This document shows, one piece after another, positions 2,638-60,252 of a stretch of 64,000 nucleotides of DNA. The translations under genes were made by a program, and so were the position numbers. Under the pieces are notes generated by a model. It had not been told where the DNA came from, searched no databases, and saw nothing but the letters and a program-made list of their open reading frames with translations. Source of the DNA: Octopus sinensis (Eukaryota); the NCBI RefSeq assembly GCF_006345805.1, contig NC_043007.1, positions 12,648,001-12,712,000 of the forward strand. Reading direction: 5' to 3'. How positions within the stretch are numbered: the stretch's first letter is position 1; every line of letters begins with the position of its first letter.

Positions 2638-2668
<31 letters not shown>

Positions 2669-9862: not shown

Positions 9863-10240
9863 GGTGCAGGAGTGGCTGTGTGGTAAGTAGCTTACTTACC
9901 AACCACATGGTTCCAGGTTCAGTCCCACTGCATGGCACCTTGGGCAAGTGTCTTCTACTATAGCCTCGGGCCAACCAAAGCCTTGTGAGTGGATTTGGTA
10001 GATGGAAACTGAAAGGAGCCCGTTGTATATATGTATATGTATATATATGTGTGTTTGTATGTCTGTGTTTGTCCACCCAACATCGTTTGACGACTGATGC
10101 TGGTGTGTTTACATCCCTGTAACTTAGTGGTTCGGCAAAAGAGACTGATAGGATAAATACTAGGCTTACAAAGAATAAGTCCTTGGGTCGATTTGTTTGA
10201 CTTAAGGCCGCAGTCAAATGACTGAAACAAGTAAAAGAGT
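9863..10240 (+). mobile_element. SINE family A
   Basis: Same head, body and tail as 7265-7674. Confidence 0.88.
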
Positions 10241-10467
10241 AAAATAAAATAAAATAAAATAAAACTCTGATGATGAGGAAGCGGAAGAGAGGTGAAGATG
10301 TATGCGTAGGCATGAGTGTACATATATGCATGTTCACAGTACATACATTGTTAGAATTAAGCAAGGATGGGAACAGATTTCCAGTGTCAAAGTTGATTAT
10401 CATCAAATACAGCTGGTCCTGAGATAAGCACTAGCAACCTGAATTGGTGCATGGAAAAGCTGTATAC

Positions 10468-12391: not shown

Positions 12392-13820
12392 ATTTGGCTC
12401 AAAAGCAAATAGCAAGGCCATGTAGGGGGACATGGAGTTAAGTACAGGGTGGTGTTCATGTAAAGAGTTCAGGCCACTTGAGGTCCAGGGAGGCTTTGAA
12501 CAAAGCGGTCGTCGGCATCTTCACCATCTCATCTGGCAGCTTGTTCCACGGATCCGCAACCCGGACGGAGAAAGCTCCTCTCCTTCGATTGAGATGAAAT
12601 CGTCGCAGGTAAAGCTTTTCGGAATGACCCCGCAGCCGACGCTCCGGAGCAGGAGTGAAGAACAGCTCTTTCGAGAGGTTACACTTCCCGCTTATGATGT
12701 TGTGGGCGAGAATGAGATCACCACGGCGGCGGCGTTTTTCAAGAGAATAAAGGTCGAGCGTCCTCAGCCTTTCTTCGTAGGACAAATTTTTGAGACCATG
12801 AACCATGCGGGTAGCCAGCCTCTGGACTCTTTCGAGGTGCTGTATGTCTTTGAGGAGATAAGGAGAAGAGGCTTGAATCCCATACTCCAATATGGGTCTC
12901 ACCAGCGTGACATAGAGTGGCAGGAATATGGCTGCTGTGAGCACTCCGAATGACCGTCGAATCAAAAACAGAATTCCGCGCGCTTTGTTGGCAGCATGGA
13001 CGCACTGGGCCGAAGGCGAAAAGGAGGAATCCACCAAGATACCCAGGTCCTTTACCTGATCGGTCCTCTCCAGCAGCAGACGACCCGGCTCGAAATCAAG
13101 TTGAGTTGTAGGAGTAGAGCCGACAGGCAGATGACAGCACTTTGACACGTTCAGACACAGGTCCCAATCGTTAGACCACTTCCAAATTTGGTGGAGGCAT
13201 CGACGAAGATCCTCTATACTACCGCGAGGAGCGACCAGTTTGATATCGTCGGCAAATAGAAGGGTGTGTTGCGTGAGGTCGTCGGGCAAGTCATTTATGA
13301 AGACTAAGAACAACAAGGGCCCAAGCACTGAACCTTGAGGCACGCCACTGCTCGCACTGGAGACGTCGGACCGCGAACCATTAACTTGAACTTGGAAGGA
13401 GCGATCTGAGAGGAAGGCACCAACCCATCGTACAATATCCGGATGGAAACTATATGCTTGAAGCTTGACAAGTAGTAGGCGGTGGTTTACCGAGTCAAAA
13501 GCTTTGGCAAAGTCCAATAAAACGATGTCAACAGCATCACTATCATCGAGGATGCACGTCACCAATTCTTCCATTACTAGTAAGTTGGTCAAGCATGATC
13601 TCTTCGGCACGAAGCCGTGTTGGGAATCAGTGATCGAGGCTGTGCTTAGGAGGTGGAGCATCATACTTTTCTTAAGGATGGTTTCGAACATCTTGCTGAT
13701 TATTGATGTAAGGGAAACCGGTCGGTAGTTAAGCGGGTCTTCGCGGCTCCCTTTCTTGAAAATTGGGCAGATTATCGCTGTTCTCCAGTCTGCAGGTATA
13801 ACACCCGTCGCCAATGACAT
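12363..13820 (-). mobile_element. 5'-truncated CR1-clade non-LTR retrotransposon with (TAAC)n tail
   Basis: Uninterrupted RT ORF, short 3' UTR 12392-12455, (GTTA)n run on + at ~12360-12391, possible ATTGTT target duplication at 12357-12362 and 13821-13826. Confidence 0.92.
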
Positions 13821-13841
13821 ATTGTTCTTGTAACATTGCAA
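12456..13841 (-). CDS. Reverse transcriptase plus C-terminal domain of LINE ORF2 (no endonuclease; first few codons are flank-derived)
   Basis: RT motifs NYRPVSLTS, QHGF, LLDFAKAFDSV, GVPQGSVLGPLLFLVFINDL, LFADD, KDLG; CR1-type C-terminus LVRPILEY, LERVQR, RRRGDLI, RGH, FSVRV..WNKLP. Confidence 0.93.
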   Translation of the reverse strand: MQCYKNNMSLATGVIPADWRTAIICPIFKKGSREDPLNYRPVSLTSIISKMFETILKKSMMLHLLSTASITDSQHGFVPKRSCLTNLLVMEELVTCILDDSDAVDIVLLDFAKAFDSVNHRLLLVKLQAYSFHPDIVRWVGAFLSDRSFQVQVNGSRSDVSSASSGVPQGSVLGPLLFLVFINDLPDDLTQHTLLFADDIKLVAPRGSIEDLRRCLHQIWKWSNDWDLCLNVSKCCHLPVGSTPTTQLDFEPGRLLLERTDQVKDLGILVDSSFSPSAQCVHAANKARGILFLIRRSFGVLTAAIFLPLYVTLVRPILEYGIQASSPYLLKDIQHLERVQRLATRMVHGLKNLSYEERLRTLDLYSLEKRRRRGDLILAHNIISGKCNLSKELFFTPAPERRLRGHSEKLYLRRFHLNRRRGAFSVRVADPWNKLPDEMVKMPTTALFKASLDLKWPELFT

Positions 13842-14085
13842 GAAGCACCATGATTGTTTTGACTTAACTAATATTTACACCCTTTGCTATAACATAACAG
13901 GCTTTAATCACATTTCCGGCTTACCAAATTCCACTAACAATTTATTGATCAACTTTAGGCTGTGAGAGAAGATACTTGCTCAAGATTCCATCCAGTGGGA
14001 ATCAAGCCCAGAGCCACACAACCATGCCTGTTTATATTTTCTCTTAGCACAGGATGTTACATTAAATTTGTTGAAAATACTAACA

Positions 14086-14246
14086 GTGCAGGAGTGGCTG
14101 TGTGGTAAGTAGCTTGCTAACCAACCACATGGTTCCGGGTTCAGTCCCACTGCGTGGCACCTTGGGCAAGTGTCTTCTTCTATAGCCTCGGGCCGACCAA
14201 TGCCTTGTGAGTGGATTTGGTAGACGGAAACTGAAAGAAGCCTGTC

Positions 14247-14300
<54 letters not shown>

Positions 14301-14481
14301 TTATGTGTGTGTGTTTGTGTATCTGTGTTTGTCTCCCTAGCATTGCTTGACAACTGTCACTTAGTGGTTCAGCAAAAGAGAGACCGATAGAATAAGTCCC
14401 GGGGTCGATTTGCCCGACTAAAGGCGGTGCTCCAGCATGGCCGCAGTCAAATGACTGAAACATGTAAAAGAGTAAAGAGAG
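14086..14481 (+). mobile_element. SINE family A (internal deletions)
   Basis: Same family with an internal (TA)n; ends ~400 nt upstream of PACSIN coding exon 1. Confidence 0.88.
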
Positions 14482-14896
14482 TGACTTAATGTCTTTTATT
14501 TAAAAAAATGTAGTAAAATATGCATTCTTACTTGAGAGTAAAAGCTATAGCCTGAGGTTTGGGTTTTGTAATTTAAATACTGCTTTGACATTTTATTTAT
14601 CGTTCAGATATGAATAAAATGTTGAAGTGAGGAGGTGTTATTTTTTACTCTGTGTTTAATATATTGTTGTGGGTGGAAATTGTTACAAGTGTTATTGTAA
14701 GACAATTCCTTGTCAAAAACTAGATTGTGCATTGAAAAAGAACAACAACAAAGAGAATCCACAAATAATCTTTATATAAAGCCTGCTTTTTGTATCAATT
14801 GTTGAGTCATTGTAATAAAATTCTCACATGCTATCATAACCACATTCTCATTTATTTATTTTTCTTTCTAATTTTAGGTTAACTGTCAGCTGTAAC

Positions 14897-15104
14897 ATGT
14901 CTGTTATGGATGAGTATAACAACCAAGCAAGTGAGAGTTTCTGGGAGATAGGAAAATATAACCGGTCTGTAAAACGGATTGAAAATGGCAGTAAACTTTG
15001 TGACAGTTTAAGGCAATTAATTGAAACAAGAAGTGATATAGAAAAATCTTACGCAAAGCAGCTTTCACAGTGGTCTAGAAAATGGAATGACTTCCTTGAA
15101 AAGG
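14897..15104 (+). CDS. PACSIN: PACSIN/syndapin coding exon 1 (F-BAR N-terminus); exon begins at 14878 with 19 nt of 5' UTR
   Basis: Pyrimidine tract and TAG acceptor ending 14877, ATG at 14897. Translates MSVMDEYNNQASESFWEIGKYNRSVKRIENGSKLCDSL...RSDIEKSYAKQLSQWSRKWNDFLEK, matching the PACSIN FCH pattern SFWExGxYxRxVKRI. Donor G|GTAAAT at 15105, phase 1. Confidence 0.95.
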
Positions 15105-36207: not shown

Positions 36208-36685
36208 TACATACATACATACACAATACAAATATACACGTCTCTACCCCTCCCTCTCTCTATATATAAAGTATTAAAATATGGGGTGCTCAATACATGT
36301 GAGAACAGTGTAGAGCCTGTTTTGTGGATTATGTACACTAACTATGAAATCATATGATATGTGGCTGAATCTGTTTTTAAGTGGTTGTCTTTAAGAGATT
36401 GCATTCCCTCACCTTCAGTACACTGTGTATTTATTATGGTAGTTTTGACTTTACGTGTAGTAATGCCTTTAATATAAATAAATATATTTAAAGGGAATAA
36501 TTATAAATTTTTCCTTGTGAGGTTTTCATGCTGACTACTTGATAAATTCTTATAAAGATTTTATCCTATTTTAAATTATATATAAAAATTATGGCGAATT
36601 ATATAAGAATAAGTTCTGGAGTTGATTTGTTTGACTAAACCCCCTTAAGGTGGTGCTCCCTTCTTTGGATTTTTCCTTTTCCTAT

Positions 36686-36720
36686 GTTTCTGACGAAGAG
36701 CTCTGCTCGAAACATTAAAC
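36686..36720 (+). ncRNA. Minimal type-I hammerhead-ribozyme-like motif
   Basis: GTTT-CTGACGA-A-GAGC(TCT)GCTC-GAA-ACAT-T-AAAC. Confidence 0.55.
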
Positions 36721-38084
36721 CCTCCTTCTTTCCTGAGCGTCCAATAATACTATACTTGTTCCACGTCCTCGCATTGTTGTGTTTTCTCTTTGTGTTTTCA
36801 TGTTTGGGTTAACTATATATATATGACGAGCTTCTTTCAGTTTCCATCTACCTGATTCACTTGGCCCAAAGTGCCATGTAGTGGGACTGAACTCGGAACC
36901 ATGTGGTTGGGAAACAAATTTCTTACCACACAGCCACACCTGTTTCAAGTTTTTAACAAGTCATATTTAAACACCCAGTTATCTTCCCCTTGACCTTAAA
37001 ATAAAGAAAAGAAAGGAAAAAGGATTGGGGACAGCAAACTCAGATGTAAATCCAGGAAGTAATTTTAATTCTCCCCTCTAAATTCAGAAGAATTCACATT
37101 TCTGCTATTAGAAGTTTACTATAAATGAATAACATTGAATCATTAATTAGCTTATTAGAAGTTTTCTGTTTAGCTCTAATGTAGGACAAAGATTATATTT
37201 TTATTGATTGTCCTTACGAAATTCACTGTTCAACAGGAACTGGTCAGCAGAATGCATTTTTGCTGGCATTCATAAATGTTCATGAGGTTTTAAGTAGAGT
37301 AATGATTTTAGATGTTGTTAGTCTTATTTCCAAACCCAGAACGAGTCAATTGATAGTATTGATGTTTCGTTTGTTTCTCGTCTTTTTACTAAAGCCAGTT
37401 CTACGTATTTTTGTATTTCAATTACTTTGTGTTTGATAAAAATTGTATCTTTACTCAATCTATTTCTCGAGAAGTCAAACTGGTTTGCTTCTAACAAATT
37501 GCTCATATTCATTGAACTTTTACATTAAGACTTTTGGCAATATTTTGAAACTTGCATTCACTAAATGAGATGAGTCTATTATTTGCTAGCACAGCCTTTG
37601 TTTCCTTTTATTATTTCCTTGCATTTTTAAACAGAATGTTTGTTATTTCTTATTTGTTTCTCTCTCTTTTTTTTTTTTTGTTTTGTTTTTGCTGCCACGC
37701 CCATCAACTCTCTTACTTATTTACATTATACAGCCCTTCATTCCTCTCCGACTTTCCCCAACCATGCATCATCTACATGCTATCTAGTCCCTGTATGTCA
37801 AACTTGAATTGATTTCCATAAACGGTGACCTTGAGAGCATCCTTTTGTAGAGCCTTACTGACCTCGTTTCTTTTAACAGTTAAAAAAAAAAATTCAAGTC
37901 CTATTCATTAATAAAATATTACCTTGCCCACCTACCCCTAGAGGTTAGTGATAGCTAGAGACTTTACAATCACTCCAAATACTGGCCCTCACGTCATCAC
38001 CAAGAATCTCTACTGGTGAAAACACATCATTAGCCTAGCTAAGACCCCATCCCCAAAACTATTTCAGCCAATTGATGGTTTCTG

Positions 38085-38500
38085 TCATCCTATGGGGCTC
38101 GTGCGAAGCCCACTATGGAGTACTGTGCCCACATCTTGGGCTGGGCTGTTGCTACACACTGTTACTCTGGAATGCATCCAGAGAAGGGCCAGTTACCTGA
38201 CTAGTATTCAGTCACTAATAAATACTCCGACTACTGACCCATGGACATGCAACCTCTATCACTACTTCAATGACCTCTGTTCCTTAGAGCTGGCTGGTCT
38301 CTTACTCTCTTTACTCACGCATTCCCGACCCACTCATCTCGCCACCTCTCATCACTCTTGTTGAACCCAACCCCACTACTATACTCGGTGCTTCCTTCCC
38401 AGAACATCATCCCTTAGGAATCTTCTTTCTCTCTCTCTGCTCATCTTTTGTGCAGGTGTTGTTGACTTGCAACATCTTAAACAACATGTTAATGGCATCA
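38085..38500 (+). mobile_element. Old frameshifted LINE ORF2 C-terminal fragment (Jockey/CR1 group)
   Basis: Fragments across frames: PTMEYCAHI, LECIQRRA, LYHYFNDLCSLEL. Confidence 0.55.
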
Positions 38501-39481
38501 AATTCACCCGTCACAGAGGGCCATCTTAAGTATTGTGTTTAAGCTGTTGCTCAGTTTAAGACCATTGTTTAGCATTTTGGATGTCTTTAGCAGAATACAC
38601 TTAGTTGAAAGCATTCGAGTTTGGTCTCATGTCCAAGTGTAACTTTCGCCCTTCCCTCCAATGAAGCCTTATGAAATGTTATAAGAATTACTTTTACATT
38701 TGACCATGTGTGTATGTATGTATGTGTGTGTGTGTATATATAAAATATATAATATAGTCATTTGATGTCCAGTTTACCATATACTGGCATGGGTTGCACA
38801 GGTTTGGTTTTAAGGTACATCTGTCATGCCAAGCTTGTCTTTTATATCTGGATGTTCTTCTTTTCACCAAGAACTTTACAGTATGGACTCGGTGCATTCT
38901 ATCATAACACTGGCATAATATTTATTATATAGTCATTCTTATCCTTTAATGTCTCATCTATGCTGGCATAGGTTAAGTAGTTTGACAGGATCCAGTCCAA
39001 CAAGGCTGAGGACTGCATCATGCTGTAGCATCTGCTTTTGCATGGTCTATACAGTTAGATGCTTTTCCTGGGGCCAACAGTTTTACAGGGTGTATTCAGT
39101 GTTTTTTGAGGTTTTTTTTCATGGCAAGGTTAAGACATCCCCTCTCTGCTGAAGTCCCTCGCAGACATTCTATGAGTGCCAGGAACTTTAGCAGAGAAGG
39201 AAGCAGCAAGGCAGCTTTACACAGCTTGGTTGCAGCTGCTTGAAGAATGTATTTATGTGTGTGCACGTGTGTATAATAGGGAAATGATTTCCAACCCCTA
39301 AACTCCCTAGCAATGTGTGTTGGGCATACTACTAATTATATATATATATATATATACATATACAAACGTTTTCAGTGAACATATTAGAATATTTTATGAA
39401 TATGTAGCACCTGATTGCTGTTAGAATATATCTGTATTTTCCTTTCTCTTTAACCGAAAGTTAGTTACTAGCCTAGAGTTG

Positions 39482-39482
<1 letters not shown>

Positions 39483-39542
<60 letters not shown>
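39483..39542. repeat. (TA)n microsatellite
   Basis: Perfect TA run. Confidence 0.95.
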
Positions 39543-39544
<2 letters not shown>

Positions 39545-40475
39545 TATATGCCTACAGATTCTTTACGCAGTTAGTGTGTGTTTGAAACGTTAGTAATCAA
39601 CTCTTTGTCATCTACTTGTGAAACGAACATCTGCAAACAGTTCCTTTTTAGAAAGATACACATTGGAGTCTTGATATTTGTTTTCTTTAGCTCTCAATAA
39701 TAATAATAACAACAATAATGATGATGATGATGATGATGATATAACAGTACAGATGGCTTTACTCAGTGAATTTCTTCCGTTTAGAACTAGTTCAGAAGGA
39801 CTTGTAACAAGTGAGAATTTGCTCTGAACCTCTGTTGCTAATAGGAAATAAGGATGTTGTCTCAACATCAGGGTTGAGTGTTGGCAGTAAGAGATAGTGT
39901 GATTTTTCAGACTGTTAATCTCTATTTTTGCGGGGATGAAAGTGTTCCTCTTTACATTCCATTCAGCTTGATCTTCAGTCACCGTTACCAGGTGTCTTGT
40001 TCTTAGATTACCTACTTTAGTAGCCTAATTGACGAGAATAGGATTACCCCAGGTTTAAAAATAATGATTCCTAGTTTTGTCTGCGTGTGTATGTATGTAT
40101 GTATACACATACACATGCTTCACACTTCAGCTCAAGACTATTAGAAGACACGTGTACAAGGTGCCACACATCCATGTCTGTGCCTTGTAGATGTGTGTGT
40201 GTGTGTTGAAAGATGATCTCAGCAGTCTGAGAAATGGTGATTCTGTGGATTAATTGTTCTTAATCTCCTAGCACTACTAACAACTTTCAATTAATCATTG
40301 TAAGTTTATACACTGAAATTTTGTTTCATATACATACATATATATATAGAGAGTAGCTTCTATGCTGAAGTGAAGACAGTATAATCTTTGTCTATCTCCT
40401 TACCTTCTTGGAGGTTTTAGGTAAAATCGCACTAATGTGTCCATCTGTTTTAATTTAATTTAATTCTATGTCTTT

Positions 40476-40563
40476 ATGCAGCTGAGGATTGCTCTGCATT
40501 TAAATTGATGTAATGGTTGCATTGTTCAATTAAATGGAGTCGCTTGAAACAATCGTATTGCAT
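40476..40563 (+). ncRNA. Type-I hammerhead-like motif with long stem II
   Basis: ATGCAG-CTGAGGA-[imperfect hairpin CATTTAAATTGA/TCAATTAAATG]-GAA-ACAATCGT-A-TTGCAT. Confidence 0.5.
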
Positions 40564-40896
40564 TACCTCTGGATATCCTTGTTGCTTATTTTGATTTTAA
40601 TCACCTTATTTTGAAACTGTATGAATAATACCATACTAAATTCTAGTGCCTCGTCTTAAGTACCTAATTCATCTGAATCATTGGTAAGAAACCATTTCCA
40701 TCAGATGAATTTATTATCTTCAAACATAGAGGAGTATGCTTGTTACTCAGACCTAACAAGGTACCTCAATTTAAGTACCTAATCCAACTGAATCTTAATT
40801 GTATTCTGTATATATAAGATAGATCATTAGCTCCTACACACATTTTTTCTCTCCTTTTTTTTCTCTCCGTGTTTCTCTCCTTGTTTTTTCTGTGTA

Positions 40897-40934
40897 TCTT
40901 TCTGTCGAAGAGCATAGGCTCGAAACGTAAAAGA
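40897..40934 (+). ncRNA. Minimal type-I hammerhead-ribozyme-like motif
   Basis: TCTTT-CTGTCGA-A-GAGC(ATAG)GCTC-GAA-ACGT-A-AAAGA: stem I TCTTT/AAAGA, stem II GAGC/GCTC, palindromic ACGT stem III, GUA site. The core has U at the normally invariant A6. Confidence 0.55.
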
Positions 40935-42751
40935 CTTTTTCTATTTCTATTCCTGAGCGCTATACTAATACATTTGTTTGTTTGTACTCCACCTGCCTTC
41001 GTCTTTTGTTTATTTTTGTAAACTTTCCCGTTATATATATATACATACACACACGCACACACATGCAGAAGGACCCGGTTTCACTCTGGTTGTAAACTCA
41101 TAACCATAACACAATACTGTTTTGCAGCTTGTAGCGTAAGATTAGTGTATTTCTCAGAAAGCAATACTTACTTTTGATACTCAAGAACACACAGGTTCTG
41201 AAATGAAAAAGAAGTGATTATACATGCGTGTGCGTATCTAGGTGGCTGTAGTTGCTGTGTCAATACCGGAAGTAGACATTGAAAAAACCTGTTGCTACGT
41301 CAATATTGGAAGTTGACTTTGAAAAACTCTTTCTAAAGAAGTGAATCGTATATATAAAACGATATTCATCATCATCAATTATTGTCCATTTTCCATGCTG
41401 GCATGGGTTGGACGGTTTGACTGAGGTCTGGGGAGCCAGTGGCTGCATCAGGCTCCAGTCTGATCTGGCAATGTTTCTACAGCTGGATGCCTTTCCTAAT
41501 GCCAACCACTCCAAGAGTGTAGTGGGTGCTTTTTACATGCTACCAGCACAGGAGCCAGTCAGGCAGGCAGGCCTAGGATCAATCACATTTGGATAGTGCT
41601 TTTTATGTGCCACCCGCATGGGGTACTAGCATCGGCCACATTCGGATGGTACTTTTTATTTATTTTATTTAGTTCTAATAAAAAAAATAAATGATGACCC
41701 TATTATGCATCTGAGGTCAACTTATTCATGCACCCCAAGTATGGAACCAATCCATGCAGCTATTTTTGCTTGAAAACCAAATACACACACATGCACACAC
41801 ACAGGCCTATTTTATATAATAGATATGTCTTTGCTCCATCTATCCTTTCTGTGGAAATATATAGACTCGGAACATTAAAGCTCTCTTTCATTTTTCCTGG
41901 GCATGAACCGAATACACTCTGTTTCTTGTTCTTTCATCACATCTTTGTGTTTTCTTTATTTTTGAATTGTGTGGGTGTGTGTGTTAATAAGCTCTTTAAC
42001 TCAAACATTTACAAATAGATTATCTCTCAACCCATGTTTTTGAAGTGTTTACCTTGTTAAAGAATCTGTTGAGAAAGTCTAGCCAAAATATATTATATCA
42101 ATGCTGTAGCTGGGGAGGATGGGTGATTGTCACAATCTCAGAGCACCTATCAAGTTGTGTATTTAATCAGTGCTAATGAAATATGATGAAGATTGACTGT
42201 ATAAAAAAAGAACAAAACCAGCACAACAAAAAAGGTTAAAAAAAAAAAAAAGAGCTGTCCTGATCTTATCAAAAATATGTAAGACTACAATACAAACAAT
42301 GAACTATACAAAAGACTCTGTGCACAAAAGCAGTTTAGTGAATTCACTGAATTGGAACAGATTTACTGAGTTGAATCACTCACATGAATATTCTCAAAAT
42401 AAGCTTATTTTTGTTTTCTGGTTTCCCTCTGTTAATCAACTGTACTCATACTGTCTTAGCTAATTGTTTCAGCATGACTGTATGTTTCAGGCAGCCACGT
42501 AGTCGCAAGCGGACACTAACAATCCCGCAGTCATTCCTACTCTAACCCAGCAGAATATCCATGATGGGACGTTGGAGGGAAGGTCATACCAGTCGCCAAT
42601 GGTACTCTGGCCGGTACTCATTTTTAGCTTGATAAACTAAAGCAGCAGGAAATGAAGTGCCTTACTGAAGGAAACAGTGTGTCATTTGAACCAGGGATTG
42701 AACCCTCTACCATATGCTCATGATCCTGATACCCTAACCACTAAGCCATAG

Positions 42752-42796
<45 letters not shown>

Positions 42797-42892
42797 GGTA
42801 CAGGAGTAGCTGTCTGATTAGAAGTCTGCTTACGAACCACATGGCTCTGGGTTCAGTCCTACTGTATAGCACCTTGGGCAAGTGGCTTTTAC

Positions 42893-43131
42893 TATATATT
42901 TCTTTACTACCCACAAGGGGCTAAACACAGAGGGGACAAACAAGGACAGACAAACGGATTAAGTCGATTATATCGACCCCAGTGTGTAACTGGTACTTAA
43001 TTTATTGACCCTGGAAGGATGAAAGGCAAAGTCGACCTCGGCAGAATTTGAACTCAGAACGTAATGGCAGATGAAATACCGCTAAGCATTTCGGCCAACG
43101 TGCTAACACTTCTGCCAACTCGCCGCCTTAT
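42893..43131 (-). mobile_element. SINE family C nested in an older family A SINE
   Basis: AGTGGCTTTTAC at 42881-42892 and 43132-43143. Confidence 0.86.
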
Positions 43132-45137
43132 AGTGGCTTTTACCTCAGGCCAACAAAAGCCTTGTGAGTGAATTTAGGGTAGATGGAGACTGAAAGAAAC
43201 TTCCGTGTGTGTGTTTATTGTTTTTTGTTGTTTTTACAACCTGTGGTTGTTTGTTGCTCTCTCCTTGTCTTGACATGAAGGGATAGTTATAATCAAATGT
43301 CTGTGTTATGCAAGCAGTGTAGGGTACACGCAAGAAGCCAGATGTGGCCAGTTTCAACGCAAACAGGTTGAATATTAGGACCGGACACATCCAGTTTAAA
43401 TGCTAAAAGGTTACTTTGGTACAGTGAGATTTGATGGAGATTTAGTTGCTATTTCCAGCAGGTTGATCCACCTTGTAGGGACTAAAAGCACAGCAAGCTG
43501 AAGTCAGCTAAGTATTCTGATCTGTTTCTTTACTTTCAGATGAATAAATTGATATCGCATCCTCAATATACTAATTCCTTTAATGTCTGTCTGTGTGTTT
43601 ATCTAGTTCTCTGTTCAATCAGATTCCAGTTGGTACACTAAAAACAGTGATTGATCTGACAACGATGCAGGTGATTAGCCATGTATCGGCAAAGAAAATC
43701 ACACAGCTGTTTCATGTTTCACTGTGAAATTCGCCTTGCTTTGATCTCATCCATCTTATTGATTACCGACCTAACTTATATTGGTCAAGAAAATGTTTAG
43801 CAATAAAACTATGTAATAAGGAGCACTTAACAAATGCATCGTATTTTGTCATCATGGGATTTATCGATAGCAACTAAGACCGCTAAAAGCTGTAAGCTTG
43901 GTGGTCATTCATCTTGCTAGAAATAGCAGCCAACCTTACTGTCTTAAAAGAAAAGAAAAGAGACACATTGGCAAATGTTGTACGAGGTACATCCATTCAT
44001 CATCATCGTTTAACGTCCGCTTTCCATGCTAGCATGGGTTGGGCGATTTGACTGAGGTCTGGCGAACCAGACTCCAGTCTGATCTGGCAGTGTTTCTACA
44101 GCTGGATGCCCTTCCTAACGCCAACCACTCCGAGAGTGTAGTGGGTGCTTTTTATGTGCCACCTGCACTCTTGTATACTTGTTTCAGTCATTTTGACTGT
44201 GGCCATGCTGGAGCACCACCTTTTGTACACAAAATACTTTGAATTATAGGAACTCACTGCAAATCAATCAAGGAAACTGCTATTTTGTAAGAAAGGACAC
44301 ATTGGACAATGTAGTCTTAAATATACAAAAGTTGGGATGGTCATGGCTGGAATACTTTTTATCATAGGTCTGATGAATCAGTGTTGATTTGTGGTTAAAC
44401 AACAGCCACTACGTAGTTGTTCAGTGTGCTAGAAATAGCAAACCTAATCTCATTCTGCCTGTATCTCACCACCTTGTTAAAAGGAGGACACACTGGGCAG
44501 GGTTGTTATAAATATATCGAGCCCCTACCTGTGCTTACTCAGAAGGTCATTAACGTATAGTCAGGCAGTGTTTCGACCTCATATATGCATTATAAATATT
44601 ATGCACATTGTCATAATAGACTGTTGAGAGGTGAATTTCAATTGCACATATAGAGCACAATATATAATCCACTTTCAATACCCTGTTCGATTATATACAT
44701 CAGAAATAACAATAATCTACCAAAGCTGACAGAATTCTAGGTTAGATCAACAATGCTTTTTTTTTCCCTATTATATTTAGTTTTTGTGCAAGATATTGTT
44801 TGCATGGACTCATAACCTTCTCCCATTATTCTTACCAGAAGCTGATGTCTTGCCAGAACCACAAAGTGAATAAGTCTGAAGACACAGCTGGTCAACTATG
44901 TATCAATGAAGGCTATTATTACACTGTGGTCTCTCATGTTTTCCGAGAAATTACTGTTTTCGTTCAGTAACCTGACATTGGTTAACAAATATTATAAGTT
45001 TTCAGGTTATTAACCATCTTTAGAAATGAATATTTAAAAAAAAATATATTTACTCTTTATATATTTCCAGTTCCACACTGATTACTCCTATCTGCTCTTG
45101 CATAATGTGAACAAACATGTATCTCTTTTCTCTACAG

Positions 45138-45669
45138 CAAGGCTTCTCAACTGGGGTCCACACAACAAAATAGTAAATTGGGGGGCACACTAGTATTTGA
45201 AGGGCCCCTAAAAAAATTTTGCTTTAAGTGTATGTATTGGTCTGTATTTCAAGAAGCAGCTTGGTTTATTTCCCTAACATTTCACGTATTCAACCTGCAC
45301 AAATTAAGCCTTTAGCATTCAGATTACTCTGTCAAATGTAAAGCCTGTTTAATTACATTATTTTTAATTAATTGTACAGCATCTTGTAACTCTGGGATAT
45401 TGATGATGTCCCTGTTTATTTTTAGAATGACTTAGTAGGGTAGGTGTGAGAGGTCAGAGCTGGCTGGTTTGAGCATAAAACAGGAAGACAATTTTGGCCT
45501 GATATGGTCAGTTTAAACACTAAAGGGTTAATGTGTGAATAACAAAATAGGACTTTTGAAAAAAGTCTATAGAACTAGTTTTTAAACATTGAATGGCTAT
45601 GGGGGTCCATCAGAATAAAATAGTAATCAAAGGGGTTCATAGATTAAAAAATTGATTGAGAACCCCCTG
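45138..45669. mobile_element. hAT (Charlie-like) MITE
   Basis: TIRs CAAGGCTTCTCAA / TTGAGAACCCCCTG; flanks CTCTACAG and CTCTACGC (degenerate 8-bp TSD). Confidence 0.72.
45308..45527. mobile_element. Second piggyBac-type MITE family (CCCTTTAGCATT termini), nested in a hAT MITE
   Basis: TTAA at 45304-45307 and 45528-45531; relatives at ~3728-3941, 43340-43412, 49640-49747, 57659-57750, 59036-59140. Confidence 0.78.
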
Positions 45670-46544
45670 CTCTACGCAAATAACCTGTTCTGGGCCTCTT
45701 CCTTGATACTCTAACTTTTCACCATCTTATGTAAAGCTGCCTCTCTCCCTCCAGTACAAACTGTAAAGTGGTTGGCATTATTAGGACAGCATCTAGCTGT
45801 AGAAACCAAGCAAAAACGAACGCTGGAGTGTAATGCAGTCTTTTGAACCATCCATGTAAGCAAAGAAGACAGACATCAAAAAGGAGGAGGATGTATAGGT
45901 GCTGGTCTGACTGTGATAGGCCCAGACACAGGCATGGCTTTGAGGTTACAAAGCTTGCATTAATCCATGTGGTTTCAGGTTGGTCACACTACATAACCCT
46001 ACAGGCTGAAATATCTTCAGTTCAACCAATGCCTTGTGACTGAAAGCTTTTGACAGAAATTGTAAGAAAGCCCATTCTCTGTGTGTGTGTGTGCATATCA
46101 TTTCAGTGTGTCATCGTTAATTAGCACCATCTGACTGAAAACCAGTAATATTGTCTACTCTCTGAATGGAATAAATGCTCTGCAACTCATCAAGCATGTG
46201 ATGACTGGTAGAATGCAAAACTACCCTGCTGTATAAACAATTAAGGGTTGATAGCAAGAAAAGCACCTGGTCGTAGGACATGTGCTACAACATCATTAGA
46301 TAGGTTTGTCTTACGTACAGGTAGATTTGAAGCTAATCAAGGATGTACTTTGTTTTAAGAGGCAACACATTGCTCCTGACTGGTCGCATAATTAGCTTAC
46401 ACCCCATAGACTAAGAATCTTGTATTCTAACAACTATCTAACTATACTGCAATAAGCAAAAGTTACATACCAATAAGAGATCCTCCATATAATTGCTTGA
46501 CTTACTAAAAATAGTAGCTAAATTTCTCTCAAAATTTTATTCTT

Positions 46545-46916
46545 ATAATAATAATAATGAAATTATTGTATACAGTGCTCAGGTGCACCACAACTTGTCA
46601 AATGTGCATATAAAGCATATGCAGTAATGTACAAATGTCTGGAAAGTGAACAGTGTATGAGTCAGATACATGCTTGCGTGTGTATGGAGGGGAGAAAATC
46701 TGGTGTAGTGTTGGTGAATCTAAGGAAGCATGGAAGTTTTGAAGGATGCAGTGCTCCGACAACTAACAACTGATGCCGGCAGTTTGTTCCATACTTCAGC
46801 AACTCTTAGCATGAAAAAATGTTTCCGAAAGTCATGGGAGCTGTGCTGTTTTCTGACTTTGTAAACATGTCCACGGGTGTTAGACAGGTGGAGTTTGAAA
46901 AGGTGCTCAGAGTTCC
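46545..46916 (-). mobile_element. CR1-clade LINE 3' fragment
   Basis: TRGHVYKV...RKHFFMLRVAEVWNKLPASVV...SFK C-terminal motif, then 3' UTR and (ATT)n tail. Confidence 0.75.
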
Positions 46917-47414
46917 ATCTTAATAGTAAAGAACACATTGAACTATGTAGTTGACTGCTTTTGAAAAGAATAAATGTAAAAAGAAAAAATACTATAATCA
47001 TAGCTGAAATGCTTTTGATTACAAGTCTACTGGTTCAGAATTGACTCGGGGCTAAACAGTATAACTTATAAACGTTGCACCTTTTCATAAGGTATGATCT
47101 TGTTGTGTCAAGGACACCTGGCCTAGTGCTTTGGGTTTTTGTTCTTGAGCAAACCACTTCGTCTCATGTTGCTCTACAACCACTTCAACACCTGACGTGT
47201 GGTACACTGTGCACCTGTTCAGGTAATATTGATTTGATGGCGGGAGGGACCTAATGTACAGCACAAACATTTTGATCACTGTGAACAAATCACTTGTGTG
47301 AGTTGTTCTGCAAGAAATTGCAGAGTCCTCTTTCTCAAACCTTGTTCTAGTCTTTGTCTCAACCCTTATGAAATAACAGAGATTCTGAATATCTTATAAT
47401 TATATAACTATATA

Positions 47415-47853
47415 ATCAAAATCGAAGTCGAAATCAAACTCAGTGACTGACATCCGTTGCTAGTGGAGCGCTAAGAGTACCATATGAGTGAGATCGTTGC
47501 CAGAGCAACAAGCTGGCCTCCATGCTGATGGCACATTAACCGCACCATTCGAGCGTGATTGTTACCTGCGTCACCTTACCAGCACTTGTAACATTCGAGC
47601 GAGTTTGTCACCAGTGCTGCTGGACTGGCTCCTGTGCAGGTGGCACGTAAAAAGCACCATTTGGGCGTGGCCGTTGCCAGTACCACCAAACTGGCACGTA
47701 AAAGCACCCACTACACACTCGGAGTGGTTGGCGTTAGGAAGGGCATCCAGCTGTAGAAACTCTGCCACATCAGAGTCTGGTCGCCAGACCTCAGTCAAAT
47801 CGTCCAACCCATGCTAGCATGGAAAGCAGACTTTAAACAATGATGATGATGAT
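47415..47853 (+). mobile_element. Family B repeat just upstream of PACSIN exon 2
   Basis: Tandem GGCACGTAAAAAGCACC subrepeats and (GAT)n tail. Confidence 0.85.
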
Positions 47854-47998
47854 AACAAATATCTTATAATTTGTAAGACAAACTTTTTATTTCAGTGAAA
47901 CTTCCCTCTCTCTCTCTCTCTCTCTCTCATCCACTCTTATAGAATTGAATGTATTTTTTATAACATTAATTAAAACCTGATGTTTTCTTCATTCCTAG

Positions 47999-48198
47999 GT
48001 CCTGAATATGGTACCACCCAGACAGCATGGAGAAGTGTCTTAACAGAAGCAGACAAGTTGTGTGAACTACATACTGAAGTAGCAGAACGATTAATGACTC
48101 AAGTATATCTACAAGTTAAGCAATGGAACAAAGACAACTACCACAGGACTATGATGAATTTTCGTGAATGTAAAGATAAGGAAGACAATTTCAGAAGG
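47999..48198 (+). CDS. PACSIN: PACSIN coding exon 2 (includes wedge loop)
   Basis: Acceptor ttcctag ending 47998. Phase-1 junction rebuilds the conserved EKG-PEYGT. Encodes AWRSVLTEADKLCELH...NYHRTMMNFRECKDKEDNFRR; HRTMMNF occupies the PACSIN wedge-loop position. Donor GT at 48199, phase 0. Confidence 0.95.
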
Positions 48199-48559
48199 GT
48201 AAATTTCTTCTTCTTTTAGTTTTCTTTTTCAGTTCATCTCCTCTCGTTTATCTTATTTGGAGATGTTTATATCTGATTTGTCAACAGGAAGGCTAACAGT
48301 GAAACTAGCTTTTGTATGTGGAAGATGCACAGGTGCAATTAGCACTGAAAATGGACAGAAAATATACTCCTTCAATGGCCAGTGGGGGTCAAGCTAGAGG
48401 TAGTAGAGAGCTTCTGTTACCTAGGTGACCAAGTTAGTAGTGGAGGTGGGTGCTCCAAGAGCGTAGCTGTGAGAATAAGATTATGATGGGCAAAGTTCAG
48501 AGAGCTCCTACCCCTGCTGGGAACAAACGGCCTCTCTCTCTCTCTCTCAGAGTGAAAGG

Positions 48560-49347
48560 CAGATTGTTTGATACCTGTGTGCGAACAGCATGCTGCATGG
48601 CAGTGAAACATGGGCTGTGACAGCCAAGGACATGCCTGTGCTTGAGTGAAATGAAGCCGGTATGCTTCGCTGGATGTACAATGTCAGTGCGCATGTTTGA
48701 CAGAGTGTAAGCATCTTGATAGAAAAGTTGAGCTTAAGAGGTATCAGATGTAGTGTGCAAGAGAGACGGCTGCACTGGTATGGTCATGTGATGCATATGG
48801 ATGAGGACAGCTGTGCCAGGAAGTGCTGATCTCTGAGACCCAGGAAGACATGGAATGAGGTGGTGAACTTTGAGCCTTACGAAGGTAATGACTAGTGACT
48901 GAGACCTTGGGCAATGTGTTGTGCTTGAGAGGATCTGTCAGACCAAGTGCACCTGTGCTGGTGGCATGTAAAGAACACTTTTCAAGCGTTGGGCCTCATG
49001 GAAGCTAAGTGGCTGAGTTCCTTTCGAGCATTGAGTCTCACAGAGGCAGTGGCTGAGTTCCTTTCGAGCGTTGGGCCTCACAGAGGCAATGACTAAGACC
49101 TTTGTCATGCTTGAGAAAGCCCATCAAGTTGAGCAAAATTGCAGTCGTGACAGATACTGGTGTCACGCAGTTGGCACGTAAAAGCACCCAATACACTCTT
49201 GGAGTGGTTGGCATTAAGAAGGGCATCCAGCCATAGAAAGCCATCCCTTATCAGACTGGAGTCTGGTGCAGCCTTCCAGCGTGCCAGCCCTGTCAAACCA
49301 TCCAACCCATGCCAGCATGGACAATGTACGTTAAATGATGATGATGG
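48560..49347 (+). mobile_element. Degenerate RTE-clade LINE 3' end joined to the abundant (GAT)n-tailed repeat
   Basis: Around 48763-48825 reads RRLHWYGHVMHMDEDSCARKC (RTE RRLxWxGHVxRM motif), then the GCACGTAAAAAGCACC...GAAGGGCATCCAGC...CCAACCCATGC...(GAT)n segment found many times in the window. Confidence 0.75.
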
Positions 49348-50730
49348 TTAGAGTGGAGGCAGAATAACATTGCAGTTTACCGAGAGTTTTTAATGCACTT
49401 CTTTGGTGGTTTCCCCTTATGGTAAATGTATATATTTTTAAAGATATTTTTACACAATTATAATGGAAAAGAATTCACATAAATCAAATAAACGGATAAA
49501 TGTAGAGTGTGTGTGTGTGTGTGTTTTGTTTTGTTTTTTTTAAAGTTTCAGCTCAGAGCTGTGGCCATGCTGATGCAGTCCTCAGTCCAACCCATGCTAG
49601 CATGGACAGCGGACATTAAACGATGATGATGATGATGCATTGTCTCATAGCTTTGAGATTTCAATGATGCGGTTGTATATTTTTAAAATAACATTGTAGG
49701 GCAGGTGTGAGAGGCCAGATCCGGCCAATTTAAATGCCAAAGGATTAAACTGGTTTAAAAAACCATTGCCAATAACAACAACAACAACAAAATTGTTTTA
49801 TTAACCTCTATAAAAAATTTTGTATGAATGATTGAGATGTTTGTGATAGAAGTAGATTGTCATGAAAGGTTTTGGTTGGTGCTTGTCAAAAGATTTATGA
49901 TCCCATTTGGTTTATTCTATGTACTAAATCTGACACATTTACAACTGCTTAAAAAAACTTCTTTAACGATCATGAATTTTGACCGACTAAAAATATTTTT
50001 GTGATATTTTTTCTTTTTTTTTTTTTTCTGCTATGTGATGTTACATAAAAAATTTTTTTCAACAGAAAATACCTTTGAGCATTTAGCTTAATAATGCCTT
50101 TTCACCTGAGCTAGTGAGTATTATGAAAGGAGCACACTTTGTATTATGGTTGGCAACATTAAGAAAGGTATCCAAGTAAAGAAACTAGGCCAAAGCAGAC
50201 ACTGGAGTTTGAAACAGGCCCTCCAGGTATTCAGATCCTGTTGAACCAGTCAACCCTTGCCGCCATGGAAGACAGATGTTAGCTGATGATAATGATCATG
50301 TTGGTGACAATAATGTGTGTCATTGGATGTCTGTAGCAGAGAGTTCACTCTGTTGCAAACATTTAGACCAGCTCTCCAGCCTGCCACTGACCAATGAATT
50401 GTGGTTTCTGCCTCTCTGTTTCCTTAACAGTCATGGAGACTCTATAAAAGGAAGTTGTGGGCCCTGCTTTTCTTCCTTTTCTGATTGATAATATTTTTTA
50501 ATATAATACATTGTAAGTACAATGAAAGAAGACAGAAGCTTCTGTATTTTACTGATGAGTTAATTTAAATATAATATAGACAGGACAGTAGTTGAAGTTT
50601 TATTAGAAAATGTCATATATAATGAAAATGTGTGTAGCAGAATACAAAGGAATGAAAGATTAGACTTCAAAAATAGTTTGATGAAATTTCTCTCTCTCTC
50701 TCTCTCACGCACGCATGCACACACACACAC

Positions 50731-50765
<35 letters not shown>

Positions 50766-50830
50766 GCATGTGTACTGTTGGCGATTTTTTTTCCTCCATC
50801 TTCCCTTCCTTGGATCTTTCCTTTTCCTAT

Positions 50831-50865
50831 GTTTCTGACGAAGAGCTCCGCTCGAAACATTAAAT
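50831..50865 (+). ncRNA. Minimal type-I hammerhead-ribozyme-like motif (same repeat family as 36686)
   Basis: GTTT-CTGACGA-A-GAGC(TCC)GCTC-GAA-ACAT-T-AAAT. Confidence 0.55.
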
Positions 50866-50993
50866 CCTCCTCTTTCTTTCCTTTCCTGAGCGTCCAATAA
50901 CACTATACTTGTTCCACGTCCTCGTGTTGTTGTGTTTTCATTTTTGGATTAACTTTATGTATGTGTGTGTGTGTGTATATACATACATACACA

Positions 50994-51219
50994 CAGTAAT
51001 CTCTCACTATATCATGGTTCACTTATTGAGGTTTATTATTTAAGCTTATGTCAATTCTTCCGTGGTGTTCTTTTGTATTTATAGTAAAATAAATATATAC
51101 AAATTTTTAATATAATAATAAAAAATATACAGTACAGTACTGTTTCTACTTCGTGGATTTTCACCTATCAAAGGGGGGTGGGGTGGAACGCAACACCAGT
51201 GATAGTCGAGGGATTACTG
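50994..51219. mobile_element. pogo/Tigger-type MITE
   Basis: TIRs CAGTAATCTCTC-ACTAT / ATAGTCGAGGGATTACTG, followed by TA on the right. Confidence 0.7.
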
Positions 51220-51350
51220 TAAACATATAATTTCTAATTATGTGCCTTTTACAAAAGAAATAGAAAATGTAGCTGAAATTCAAGAATATTACGTAAAACC
51301 TAGAAAATTAACATTAAAATATCTAGTTCAAACCATTGTTATATTTTTAT

Positions 51351-51399
<49 letters not shown>

Positions 51400-51499
51400 C
51401 ATTTAAGTCCTATTAGAAATGCATTCTGTTTCTTTTAAAATACTTTGTTTACTTTCCTTTTTCTTTTACTGGTTACTTCAGTGAAATTTAGAAAATATA

Positions 51500-52100
51500 G
51501 GCGTAGGAGTGGCTATGTGGTAAGGAGCTTGCTTCCAAACCACATGGTTCCGGGTTCAGTCCCACTGCGTGGCACCTTGGGCAAGTGTCTTCTACGATAG
51601 TCTCAGGCCGGCCAAAGCCTTGTGAGTGGATTTGGTAGGCGGAAACTGAAAGAAGCTCATCATATATATGTATATGTACATATATATATATATATCGTCT
51701 GTCGTTATGTTCTGAGTTCAAATTCCGCCGAGGTCGACTTTGCCTTTCATCCTTTCGGGGTCGATAAATAAAGTACCAGTTGCATACTGGGGTCGATGTA
51801 ATCGACTTAATCACTTTGTCTGTCCTTGTTTGTTCCCTCTATGTTTAGCCCCTTGTGGGCAATAAAGAAATATATATATATATGTGCTTGTATATGTTTG
51901 TGTGTCTGTGTTTGTCCCCTCACCATCGCTGGACAACCGATGCTGGTGTGTTTACGTTACCCGTAACTTAGCAGTTCGGCAAAAGAGACCTATAGAATAA
52001 GTACAAAGGTTACAAAGAATAAGCCCTGAGGTTGATTTGCTCGACTAAAGGCAGTGCTCCAGCATGGCCACAGTCAAATGGCTGAAACAAGTAAAAGAGT
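51500..52100 (+). mobile_element. SINE family A with a 5'-truncated family C SINE (~51695-51872) inside its (TA)n
   Basis: Family A halves flank a family C body. Confidence 0.85.
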
Positions 52101-53747
52101 ATAGAGAGGCTAAAGCATATCAGAAGTTTTTGTTTCTCCGACAAGCAACGTGTCTCTTTGCGTATGCACCCTATACATGACAGTCACATTTAATTTTTTT
52201 TTTAAGAATATATATTTAGCTATTTATATTTATTTATATTTGCATATTCATGTTTGCGCTTATTATACTTCCTTCTCCATTCAAGTAGTCGTCTTGTCCC
52301 AATGAATCACAAAATATGTTTATATTGTAGATGGAACAACACAGAAAAATGAGGTTAATTTTGGCAGTTAACATAATGGCACTGAATGGCAAATTGTACT
52401 GGTACAAAAACAGTACCAAAAAAAAAAAAAAAGAAAGAAAGAAAGAAAACACACAAAGTTTTCATTATTTGATAAAAATGTTTTATTTGCCTTCCAGTAC
52501 TGAAATAAAGTATTTAAATTAAACAACAGGAGTGAAATGTATTGTGCTTTTGTGTCAGTATGAATTTAACAAGACAGTTTGTACAATCCACTTCCTAGCA
52601 ACACGACACTTTTTCCTGGAGCATTCATCATCCAATTACAGACGTTTATTCGGCAAAATAGTATATATTTTTTTAATGTTTTATGTAAAGTTATATTTTT
52701 TATGTTACGGTATATTTTAAGGCTTTTTTCTTTGAAAATTTAAGTAGCTTAATCTTTCGCTTTATTACACATATAAGTTCAGTACAATTCTGAGTTTGGT
52801 TCTACAATTCTGAGCGTGGCACCTTGGGTAAGTGTCTTCGATAGCCTTGAGCCAACCAAAGCCTTGTGAGCGGAATTGGTAGATGGAAACTAAAAGGAAG
52901 CTTGGATATAGATATATGTGTTTGTGTCTCCTTGCCTGGATATTGGGTGATAGTTGTAAACAAGTGTCACTGTCATACAAGTGGTGCCTTTCATTTCCAG
53001 TCTTCCATGAAAATATGTCTGGCCGTGGGGTGGTGGTGGTGGAATACTGCATTGCTTGGAAACGGGTGCAGGTTGATTACAGGAAGGACATCCAGCTGTA
53101 GGAAATTCACCTCAGCAAAATACTGTGCGACCCATGCAATCATGGAAAAGTGGATGTTAAAACGATGACACAACACAGTGATTGTCATCATCAAAAAAAA
53201 CCCTCCTTAGACAAATTTATCCCACCACAACATTACACTTCATGTCTTGATCCTTTGTCATGTGATACACTCAGCAACACAAAAATAAAAATAAGTGGAC
53301 CTGTTGCCACTTTGTCGTGCAGGTCAAGGATTTCCCAACCTGAAACCCTTCCTATTGCCAACCACTTTGCATCACAGTCTCAAAGTTATCAACAATAAAA
53401 ATGTTGTCAGCCAAAACCAAAACACCCACTGCTACCTGGCACCAGCTTCTATTCAATTTGCTGCCACTTGTTGAGTTCTCATCTCTTCCATACCTTACGA
53501 TAGGAAAACTACTGCTTATGAAGGGAGAAGCTCTAACTACACAAGAATGAGGGTCTGTAGAGAGGGAGGGGAGGGACTCAAGTCTGGGCTCATCTCTTAG
53601 AATAACTTTTTTTTTAACCATTTGCATTTTCTAGACTGACACTAGGAATTCAACTTAGCACCCATTGGCTGGCACTGTACTTGTCAATTTTACAATGCCT
53701 ATGGGTTAATGAGTTTAGTTTTCCATTGTATGTTAAATATTTCTGAT

Positions 53748-53965
53748 GATACACATATATATGTTTGTATATGTATGCGTGTGTATGTATGTTTATGTGT
53801 GTGTATGTATATATGTATGTATGTGTATCTGTGTATGTATGTATGTATGTATATATGTATGTGTATCTGTGTATGTATATATGTGTGTGTATGTGTATAT
53901 ATGTGTATGCATGTACGGTGTGTATGTATGTATATATCTGTGTATGTGTGCATGGTTGTGTGTGT
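53748..53965. repeat. Compound (TG/TA/TATG)n low-complexity repeat
   Basis: Visible in sequence; explains the Y/V/C/M-rich ORFs here. Confidence 0.9.
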
Positions 53966-54278
53966 TACTGTTTCGTTGCCTTAATACTGTTGAAAGCCAA
54001 TGTCAGAAATGCAGGTGTTCTTCATTTCCAGTCTTCCAAAACAGTAATGGGGGGAAATATTACCTTACTTGAAAAACAGGTCAGGATTGGCAACAGGAAG
54101 GCCAAATCTGCCTTGACAAATTTCATCCAACCCATGCAAGCATGAAAAAGTGGATGTTAAACAGTCATAATGAGTCTCTGAGATGACAGTTTTTTTATTT
54201 GTACTTGACATAATGTGATCTGTTTCGTTTCATTTTCCGACATTTATTTTAATTAATTTTTTTTTTTTTCATTTCCAG

Positions 54279-54416
54279 GCTCAAAAACCATGGATGAAGC
54301 GTTATAATAAATTAATGGTTGCCAAAAAGGAATACCATTCTGCATGCAAACAAGAAAGAAGTACAGCTAATCAAGAAAACAATGCCAAAGGTGACCCTTC
54401 AGTTCCTGTGGATCAA
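54279..54416 (+). CDS. PACSIN: PACSIN coding exon 3
   Basis: Poly-T tract and CCAG acceptor; AQKPWMKRYNKLMVAKKEYHSACKQE...PVDQ (AQKPW is typical of PACSIN); donor GTAAGC at 54417; 138 nt, phase 0-0. Confidence 0.95.
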
Positions 54417-54504
54417 GTAAGCTTTCATCTGTTTATTATTTGCCTAGAATTTTGTTTCATTTTCAATTTATTCCTAAATAGCTAACAATCAAAGTTCAAG
54501 TAAC

Positions 54505-60151: not shown

Positions 60152-60252
60152 GTTTTTAATGAATGTCAAGAAATGGAACGAAGAAGATTAACATTTTTTA
60201 AACAGATGTTATTTGAAATTCATCAATGCTTGGATCTTTCACAGAACCAACG
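60152..60252 (+). CDS. PACSIN: PACSIN coding exon 5 (absent from ORF track)
   Basis: Acceptor ctttctttcag ending 60151; hand translation VFNECQEMERRRLTFFKQMLFEIHQCLDLSQNQ(R); donor GTAAAT at 60253, phase 2. Confidence 0.93.

What the first reader, a model, noticed from the sequence alone, without database searches (positions are those of the whole stretch)
36655..50960. Family of ~200-nt microsatellite-associated repeats carrying minimal hammerheads, sense to PACSIN
Seen: related short elements at ~36655-36822, ~40830-41035 and ~50762-50960. Each has stemI-CTG(A/T)CGA-A-GAGC-loop-GCTC-GAA-AC(G/A)T-H-stemI', then TTCCTGAGCG, and ends in TA/TG repeats. Stem I covaries between subfamilies (GTTT/AAAC versus TCTTT/AAAGA) and the stem II loop varies while the stem is kept. 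Two copies have ACAT where the palindrome ACGT is expected, consistent with CpG decay. Known: minimal hammerheads with palindromic stem III work as dimers in Penelope-like elements and non-LTR retrozymes. Inference: a possibly uncatalogued cephalopod retrozyme or PLE-derived family with a variant core (extra A after A9; A6-to-U in one subfamily). Several copies in one pre-mRNA could in principle pair up and cut the intron. My - strand search was not exhaustive, so I do not claim an orientation bias.
Basis: partly seen in the sequence, partly recalled or inferred. Interest (0 to 1): 0.75.

Follow-up and report, generated by a model that had tools for sequence, protein, structure and literature searches.

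The report
Penelope retrotransposon ends with altered hammerheads
The three repeats are short end pieces of a known kind of jumping gene (Penelope-like retrotransposons) carrying a known miniature self-cutting RNA motif; most genomic copies have a changed catalytic core and were likely copied from uncut RNA, so they probably do not cut the PACSIN intron.

Summary
The three motifs are real, on the + strand, inside PACSIN introns. They are not an orphan retrozyme family. Both subfamilies join upstream to RT–Cx4Cx2C–GIY-YIG reading frames, and a near-intact element has the motif in both pseudo-LTRs, 4,508 nt apart: Neptune-type Penelope-like elements (PLEs). The genome holds 31,931 exact cores. 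The extra A after A9 and the ACGU palindrome are published traits of PLE minimal hammerheads. Less ordinary: 83% of cores alter the CUGA turn (A6U 18,323; U4C 8,095), and A6U sits in a young, nearly intact family. Of 140 sampled copies, 67 have 5' ends 95–120 nt upstream of the predicted cut and only 3 end at the cut, which points to uncut RNA templates, probably starting at the pLTR promoter. Intron cutting is unlikely: two copies lost the palindrome, the third has U6, and spliced PACSIN contigs cross copy 3's intron. Cleavage was not tested. This scan reported the same kind on other DNA before.

The parts
36657..36814 (+). Copy 1, family A pLTR end, 5' part missing; hammerhead core 36690-36716 (CUGACGA, ACAU decay, H17=U); TA tract follows
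40818..41030 (+). Copy 2, family B pLTR end; core 40902-40929 (CUGUCGA = A6U, ACGU, H17=A); 5' end about 110 nt before the predicted cut; TA tract follows
41845..41962 (+). Decayed family B copy, core broken (68% identity to the young family, E 0.001)
50763..50954 (+). Copy 3, family A pLTR end; core 50835-50861 (CUGACGA, ACAU decay); 5' end about 99 nt before the predicted cut; TA/TG tract follows
14900..15104 (+). PACSIN/syndapin F-BAR exon (limits approximate), upstream of the 33-kb intron holding copies 1, 2 and the decayed copy
   Evidence: recalled short motifs matched in translation
47998..48198 (+). PACSIN F-BAR exon
   Evidence: syndapin E 2.5e-18; contigs
54279..54420 (+). PACSIN exon, joined to 48198 in contigs of 4 of 4 runs across the intron holding copy 3
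60152..60251 (+). Probable PACSIN exon (limits approximate; no Pfam hit on its own)

Best explanation
The repeats are solitary ends (pseudo-LTR pieces, about 210 nt) of two Neptune-type Penelope-like retrotransposon families, each carrying the PLE minimal hammerhead, and most were likely written into TA tracts from RNA that had not been cut. Shown: both families run upstream through a C/T- or CA-rich 3' UTR into RT, thumb, Cx4Cx2C and GIY-YIG frames. A full-length family-B element has the motif in both pLTRs and a short internal TA tract right behind the 5' pLTR. Copies share one 3' end at TA tracts, and 5' ends pile up 95-120 nt before the predicted cut, not at it. Inferred: the GIY-YIG endonuclease nicks (TA)n; the nick primes on the RNA's UA tract; RT copies back through the intact hammerhead and runs off the transcript's 5' end, a TCA(+1)-type start 110-111 nt before the cut; longer copies come from the 3' pLTR. 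Inferred from the literature: the hammerhead would cut only as a dimer, from the two pLTRs of a full element, and slowly, more so with U6 or C4. The window's copies are inert passengers of PACSIN introns.
For: Link to coding PLEs; RVT_1 above cut-off and GIY-YIG below cut-off; DKG, GxAMG, YIDD, Cx4Cx2C and the Cys-containing GIY-YIG, aligned with 7 homologues. pLTRs at L207 1591-2368 and 6095-6877, and in L215; internal TTATATATTAT. Inverted neighbouring copies typical of PLEs at L016, L041, L050. 3' TA tract in 55 of 66 A and 65 of 69 B copies with a callable end. 5' ends at -120..-95: A 48 of 70, B 19 of 70; within 3 nt of the cut: 2 of 70 and 1 of 70; ending rate per nt 0.034 and 0.017 in the pile-up, against 0.001-0.005 elsewhere. 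One 13-bp target duplication flanks a -110 copy (L329). In D. virilis Penelope the start lies in the pLTR, 46 nt before a 75-nt intron whose end maps to helix I. Core kept between A and B: 29 of 34 nt, against 44 of 80 upstream and 60 of 100 downstream.
Against: No transcription start or cleavage data: only contigs were available. The TCA motif was picked after seeing the pile-up, and one A subfamily has TCT. Hairpins lie at the same place, and in B the pile-up sits at a hairpin base (shuffle z only -2.0 to +0.5). TA/TG microhomology blurs 5' ends by several nt. The sample is the first 70 places per family, all on contig C1, with a few duplicated pairs. Uncut templates cannot be told from cut-and-religated circles for the longer copies. 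Only 1 clear target duplication in 110 copies examined, most lying in TA tracts. No full-length family A element with a 5' pLTR was retrieved. Neptune was not separated from Nematis by a tree.
Confidence: 0.72

Rival explanations
1. Same origin, but the 5' pile-up is a reverse-transcriptase stop or snap-back at an RNA hairpin, or a length limit near 210 nt, on ordinary 3'-end transcripts.
For: Hairpins are predicted across or just before the site in 7 of 7 long copies folded, and in B their 3' base matches the -108 peak. PLEs are prone to fold-back inversions (PMC3846280 passages). Both families give similar total lengths.
Against: The hairpins are weak against shuffles. In A the peak (-110, 12 of 70 copies) lies at the far side of the loop with a hard upstream edge, not at the stem base.
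Confidence: 0.15
2. The 210-nt copies have become a self-propagating non-autonomous family (SINE-like or non-LTR retrozyme) that is transcribed from its own promoter and moved by the PLE protein.
For: A copy that keeps an internal promoter and a flanking TA tract has all it would need. About 90% of A copies are short (64 of 70). Occasional tandem pairs exist (L134, 228-nt unit). Animal retrozymes derive from pLTRs (bioRxiv 10.64898/2026.07.22.740005).
Against: Only 8 of 140 sampled copies have a second same-strand core within 700 nt. No array was seen. The short subfamilies examined (A1, A-U4C, B1, young B) each have long relatives; coding frames were traced for A1, B1 and young B only.
Confidence: 0.1
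3. One reading: copies in one PACSIN pre-mRNA pair through ACGU and cut the intron.
For: All copies are sense to PACSIN; copies 1 and 2 share an intron, 4.2 kb apart.
Against: Copies 1 and 3 have ACAU and copy 2 has U6. The intended dimer of copies 1+2 scores +2.3 kcal/mol against an alternative fold of -20.8. Spliced contigs cross copy 3's intron in 4 of 4 runs. Three sense copies have a 1-in-8 chance, and 3 copies in 64 kb against 0.75 expected gives P about 0.04 in a window picked for them.
Confidence: 0.03

Closest known systems
Minimal type I hammerheads of metazoan Penelope-like elements (Cervera and de la Pena 2014, PMC4209133; read parts 1-2 of 4 and searched supplement file 2, file 1 not searchable)
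   Same: Located in pLTRs; extra nucleotide between 9 and 10.1; G10.1-C11.1; palindromic 15.2-16.2; short helix I; U-rich upstream; mostly single motifs from truncated PLEs. A tick entry has the same CUGACGAA...CGU layout.
   Different: Published consensus is CUGANGAH; here 18,323 cores have U6 and 8,095 have C4. Stem II is 4 bp with a 3-4 nt loop and stem I only 4-5 bp. No octopus entry among the supplement passages seen.
Neptune clade of endonuclease-bearing PLEs (PMC8557442 and PMC3846280, passages)
   Same: [quoted passage not shown]
   Different: Nematis shares the linker and was not excluded. The sharp 210-nt size class was not found described in the passages seen.
Non-LTR (animal) retrozymes (PMC7229834 passages; bioRxiv 10.64898/2026.07.22.740005 part 1 of 5 and passages)
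   Same: Short unit with a type I hammerhead; pLTR-related.
   Different: Retrozymes are tandem repeats with two or more ribozymes that yield circles; these copies are solitary and belong to coding elements.
Natural hammerhead core variants A6C (phage Bcep176) and U4C (viroid) (Perreault et al. 2011, PMC3088659, passages)
   Same: Changes at the same CUGA-turn positions, with reduced activity (A6C below 0.1 per min).
   Different: Those are rare single cases; here the changes are fixed in thousands of copies, and the residue is U6.

Membership tests
Penelope-like element (EN+) | Single ORF with PLE-type RT and GIY-YIG endonuclease linked to the repeat | tested here: met
   (GIY-YIG Pfam score below its cut-off; homologues annotated PF01541)
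Penelope-like element (EN+) | Partial tandem forming pseudo-LTRs, with inverted truncated neighbours | tested here: met
   L207 and L215, family B only; L016, L041, L050
Neptune clade | Cx2-5Cx2C linker between RT and a C-terminal EN | tested here: met
   CSRSRCRTC in L211; also in family A
Neptune clade | RT phylogeny with named Neptune versus Nematis references | not tested
   no named references were fetched
PLE minimal hammerhead | CUGANGA + 1 nt + G-C closed helix II + GAAA + palindrome + UH + helix I | tested here: met
   A bulge in 248 of 255; H17 is G in only 3 of 239
PLE minimal hammerhead | Conserved U4 and A6 | tested here: not met
   Met in copies 1 and 3, not in copy 2; genome-wide at most 5,513 of 31,931 cores keep both
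PLE minimal hammerhead | Compensatory changes in helices | tested here: inconclusive
   5 of 5 stem I pairs covary across 14 hand-picked copies of three families, better than all slid controls; between A and B only one pair does; stem II was misaligned for the third family and not counted
PLE minimal hammerhead | Self-cleavage as a dimer | not testable with these tools
   bench assay needed
Non-LTR retrozyme | Tandem repeats with two or more hammerheads | tested here: not met
   8 of 140 sampled copies have a same-strand core within 700 nt; no array seen
Non-LTR retrozyme | Small circular RNA intermediate | not testable with these tools
   only contigs were available

The most novel reading that the evidence does not exclude
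In this Neptune-type lineage the hammerhead has been tuned down or switched off twice independently (A6U in family B, U4C in a branch of family A) while the elements kept multiplying, and tens of thousands of 210-nt insertions are run-off copies of uncut transcript 5' ends. The motif would then be kept for pairing or RT recognition rather than for cutting, giving a natural test of what PLE hammerheads are for.
Probability: 0.3. Interest if true: 0.62.

Novelty: new member of a known kind. Interest (0 to 1): 0.33.

Why it matters
The role of hammerheads in Penelope-like elements is stated to be unclear (PMC8557442). This genome offers matched natural alleles (canonical, U6, C4) on one scaffold, a young near-intact carrier of U6, and a mapped insertion-end profile. 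One cleavage assay and one 5'-end mapping would show whether cutting is needed for transposition. For PACSIN itself the finding is probably of no consequence.

Tried and rejected
Rfam scan of the window: no hammerhead hit. RNA search: no listed holder is on record as RNA; contigs of 4 runs cover the full element but cannot show start, cut or level, and showed no convincing intron. Pile-up of 5' ends at the cut: looked for, not found. Cofolding gave near-zero palindrome pairing for every dimer tried, including a third family with a canonical core, so it says little about activity. Internal 'tail' on short copies: only 2 B copies continue into the internal sequence, both for hundreds of bases. 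Target duplications: 1 clear case in 110. One translation was made on the wrong strand and discarded. Lunse et al. 2017 (PMC5785218) is not held; only its citation and a review's account were seen, so it may already contain U6 or C4 variants. Literature searches that showed no description of this family. Repbase and Dfam could not be checked, so 'uncatalogued' is untested. Look-up of earlier findings by sequence: nothing. No covariance model was built. Genome-wide orientation in introns was not tested (no annotation).
Full report
Observation. The three motifs are at the stated places. A both-strand scan for CTGNNGA + stem II + GAAA found only cores 36690, 40902 and 50835, all on +, with none of stem II >=4 bp in 30 shuffles. 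A decayed fourth copy lies at 41845-41962. PACSIN is on +: exon 47998-48198 matches syndapin at E 2.5e-18, further exons were located with recalled short motifs, and contigs from 4 of 4 runs join 48198 to 54279 across the intron holding copy 3. Copies 1 and 2 lie in a 33-kb intron, copy 3 in the next.

Copy number. The pattern CTGNNGAAGAGC-N3-4-GCTCGAAACR has 23,836 exact matches in the 2.72-Gb genome, balanced between strands, reversed control 0. The CCG version adds 8,095. That is one core per 85 kb, so three in 64 kb is only mildly high (0.75 expected).

What the repeats belong to. Walking upstream from family B (copy 2) led through a roughly 800-nt pyrimidine-rich UTR into a frame ending in Cx4Cx2C and GIY-YIG, preceded by thumb and RT motifs. 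Family A (copies 1, 3) does the same through a CA-rich UTR of about 1.2 kb; its endonuclease is 46-51% identical to B's. A protein search found 7,666 candidate places and a young family with long open frames. Of 12 stretches fetched, 11 carry a B-type end downstream of the frame. L207 is near full length: 5' pLTR 1591-2368, a frame open for 1,009 codons with an apparent frameshift near its start, 3' pLTR 6095-6877, hammerheads 4,508 nt apart; L215 is alike, and most of these copies align to L207 at 94-98%. Pfam gives RVT_1 above cut-off and GIY-YIG below it; homologues are 41-59% identical, mostly unnamed, with named ones from marine animals. The Cys linker before a C-terminal GIY-YIG marks Neptune and Nematis (PMC8557442, PMC3846280; passages). 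I call it Neptune-type without a tree.

The ribozyme. Cervera and de la Pena 2014 (PMC4209133; parts 1-2 of 4; supplement file 2) define PLE minimal hammerheads by a nucleotide between 9 and 10.1, G10.1-C11.1 and a palindrome at 15.2-16.2, mostly as single motifs from truncated PLEs, with no monomer activity and low dimer activity. All these traits are here: A bulge in 248 of 255 distinct cores, ACGT in 206, N7 and H17 free, H17 almost never G. The core is kept between A and B (29 of 34 nt) better than the flanks (44 of 80, 60 of 100). Stem I covaries at all 5 pairs across 14 hand-picked copies of three families, but between A and B at only one.

Core variants. 18,323 cores have U6 and 8,095 have C4, so at most 5,513 of 31,931 (17%) keep CUGA. 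The two changes mark different branches and coincided in 1 of 255 cores. U6 is in both pLTRs of the young near-intact element, so it is not decay. Changes in this turn lower activity: natural A6C cleaves below 0.1 per min and U4C considerably lowers activity (PMC3088659, passages); in a saturation study single and double mutants of the turn were low except the C3-G8 swap (PMC9901934, passages). I saw no U6 core in print, but Lunse et al. 2017 could not be read and one supplement file was not searchable.

How copies are made. I took the first 70 listed places of each family's 3'-side pattern (of 7,594 and 8,367 matches, all on contig C1) and extended them upstream against six long references each. 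3' ends are fixed and followed by TA tracts (55 of 66; 65 of 69). 5' ends pile up 95-120 nt before the predicted cut (A 48 of 70, B 19 of 70); 3 of 140 end within 3 nt of the cut. Window copies 2 and 3 fall in the pile-up class. In the full element a short TTATATATTAT follows the 5' pLTR. A TCA (TCT in one subfamily) lies 110-111 nt before the cut in six long copies, chosen after seeing the pile-up. One such copy has a 13-bp target duplication. In D. virilis the Penelope promoter and start lie inside the pLTR, about 120 nt before the hammerhead (PMC2377424 passages). The simplest reading, inferred, is priming at the UA tract and run-off at the transcript's 5' end, on RNA in which the hammerhead has not cut. 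A hairpin stop remains possible, mainly for B.

Retrozyme and intron cutting. Retrozymes are tandem (PMC7229834 passages; bioRxiv 10.64898/2026.07.22.740005). Here 8 of 140 copies have a same-strand core within 700 nt. In the window, two copies have lost the palindrome and the third has U6; the intended dimer of copies 1+2 is +2.3 kcal/mol against -14.9 for the young family's homodimer, though the model disfavours all such dimers.

Earlier findings. The scan has reported PLE hammerheads in TA tracts of octopus-like genomes, and strong-stop or uncut-template readings in other genomes. I reached my reading before seeing these notes; they are unchecked and are not counted as support.

Verdict. 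A real, high-copy new member of a known kind. The residual interest is the fixed U6 and C4 cores in successful lineages together with the insertion-end profile. Interest 0.33.

Noticed in passing
L177-L206 (e.g. L204:1490-1545, minus strand): A third minimal-hammerhead family with canonical core, stem I GACAC/GTGTT and a long stem II (GGCTG...CAGCC); it dominates the listed places of a pattern with 6,977 matches. Its parent was not traced; absent from the window.
   Followed up: partly
L020:271-302, minus strand: A canonical-looking type I hammerhead (CTGATGAG, 5-bp stem II, GAAAGAACTC), seen once.
   Followed up: no
L092 (reverse) 2600-4736: A decayed second Penelope-like reading frame without the Cys linker (probably Penelope/Poseidon type) just upstream of a family-B copy.
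   Followed up: no
window 12456-13874, minus strand: 472-codon RT frame (RVT_1, E 5.8e-33) of another retroelement upstream of the first PACSIN exon found.
   Followed up: no
window 7262-7674, 9860-10250, 14082-14482 and others: Very abundant SINE-like repeat families on both strands; copy 1 sits between pieces of them.
   Followed up: no
window 2419-2492: Near-perfect 74-nt inverted repeat (miRNA-model hits below cut-off), probably a small fold-back element.
   Followed up: no
L049, L245/L263, L243: Family A and B copies inserted next to one another in the same TA tract.
   Followed up: no
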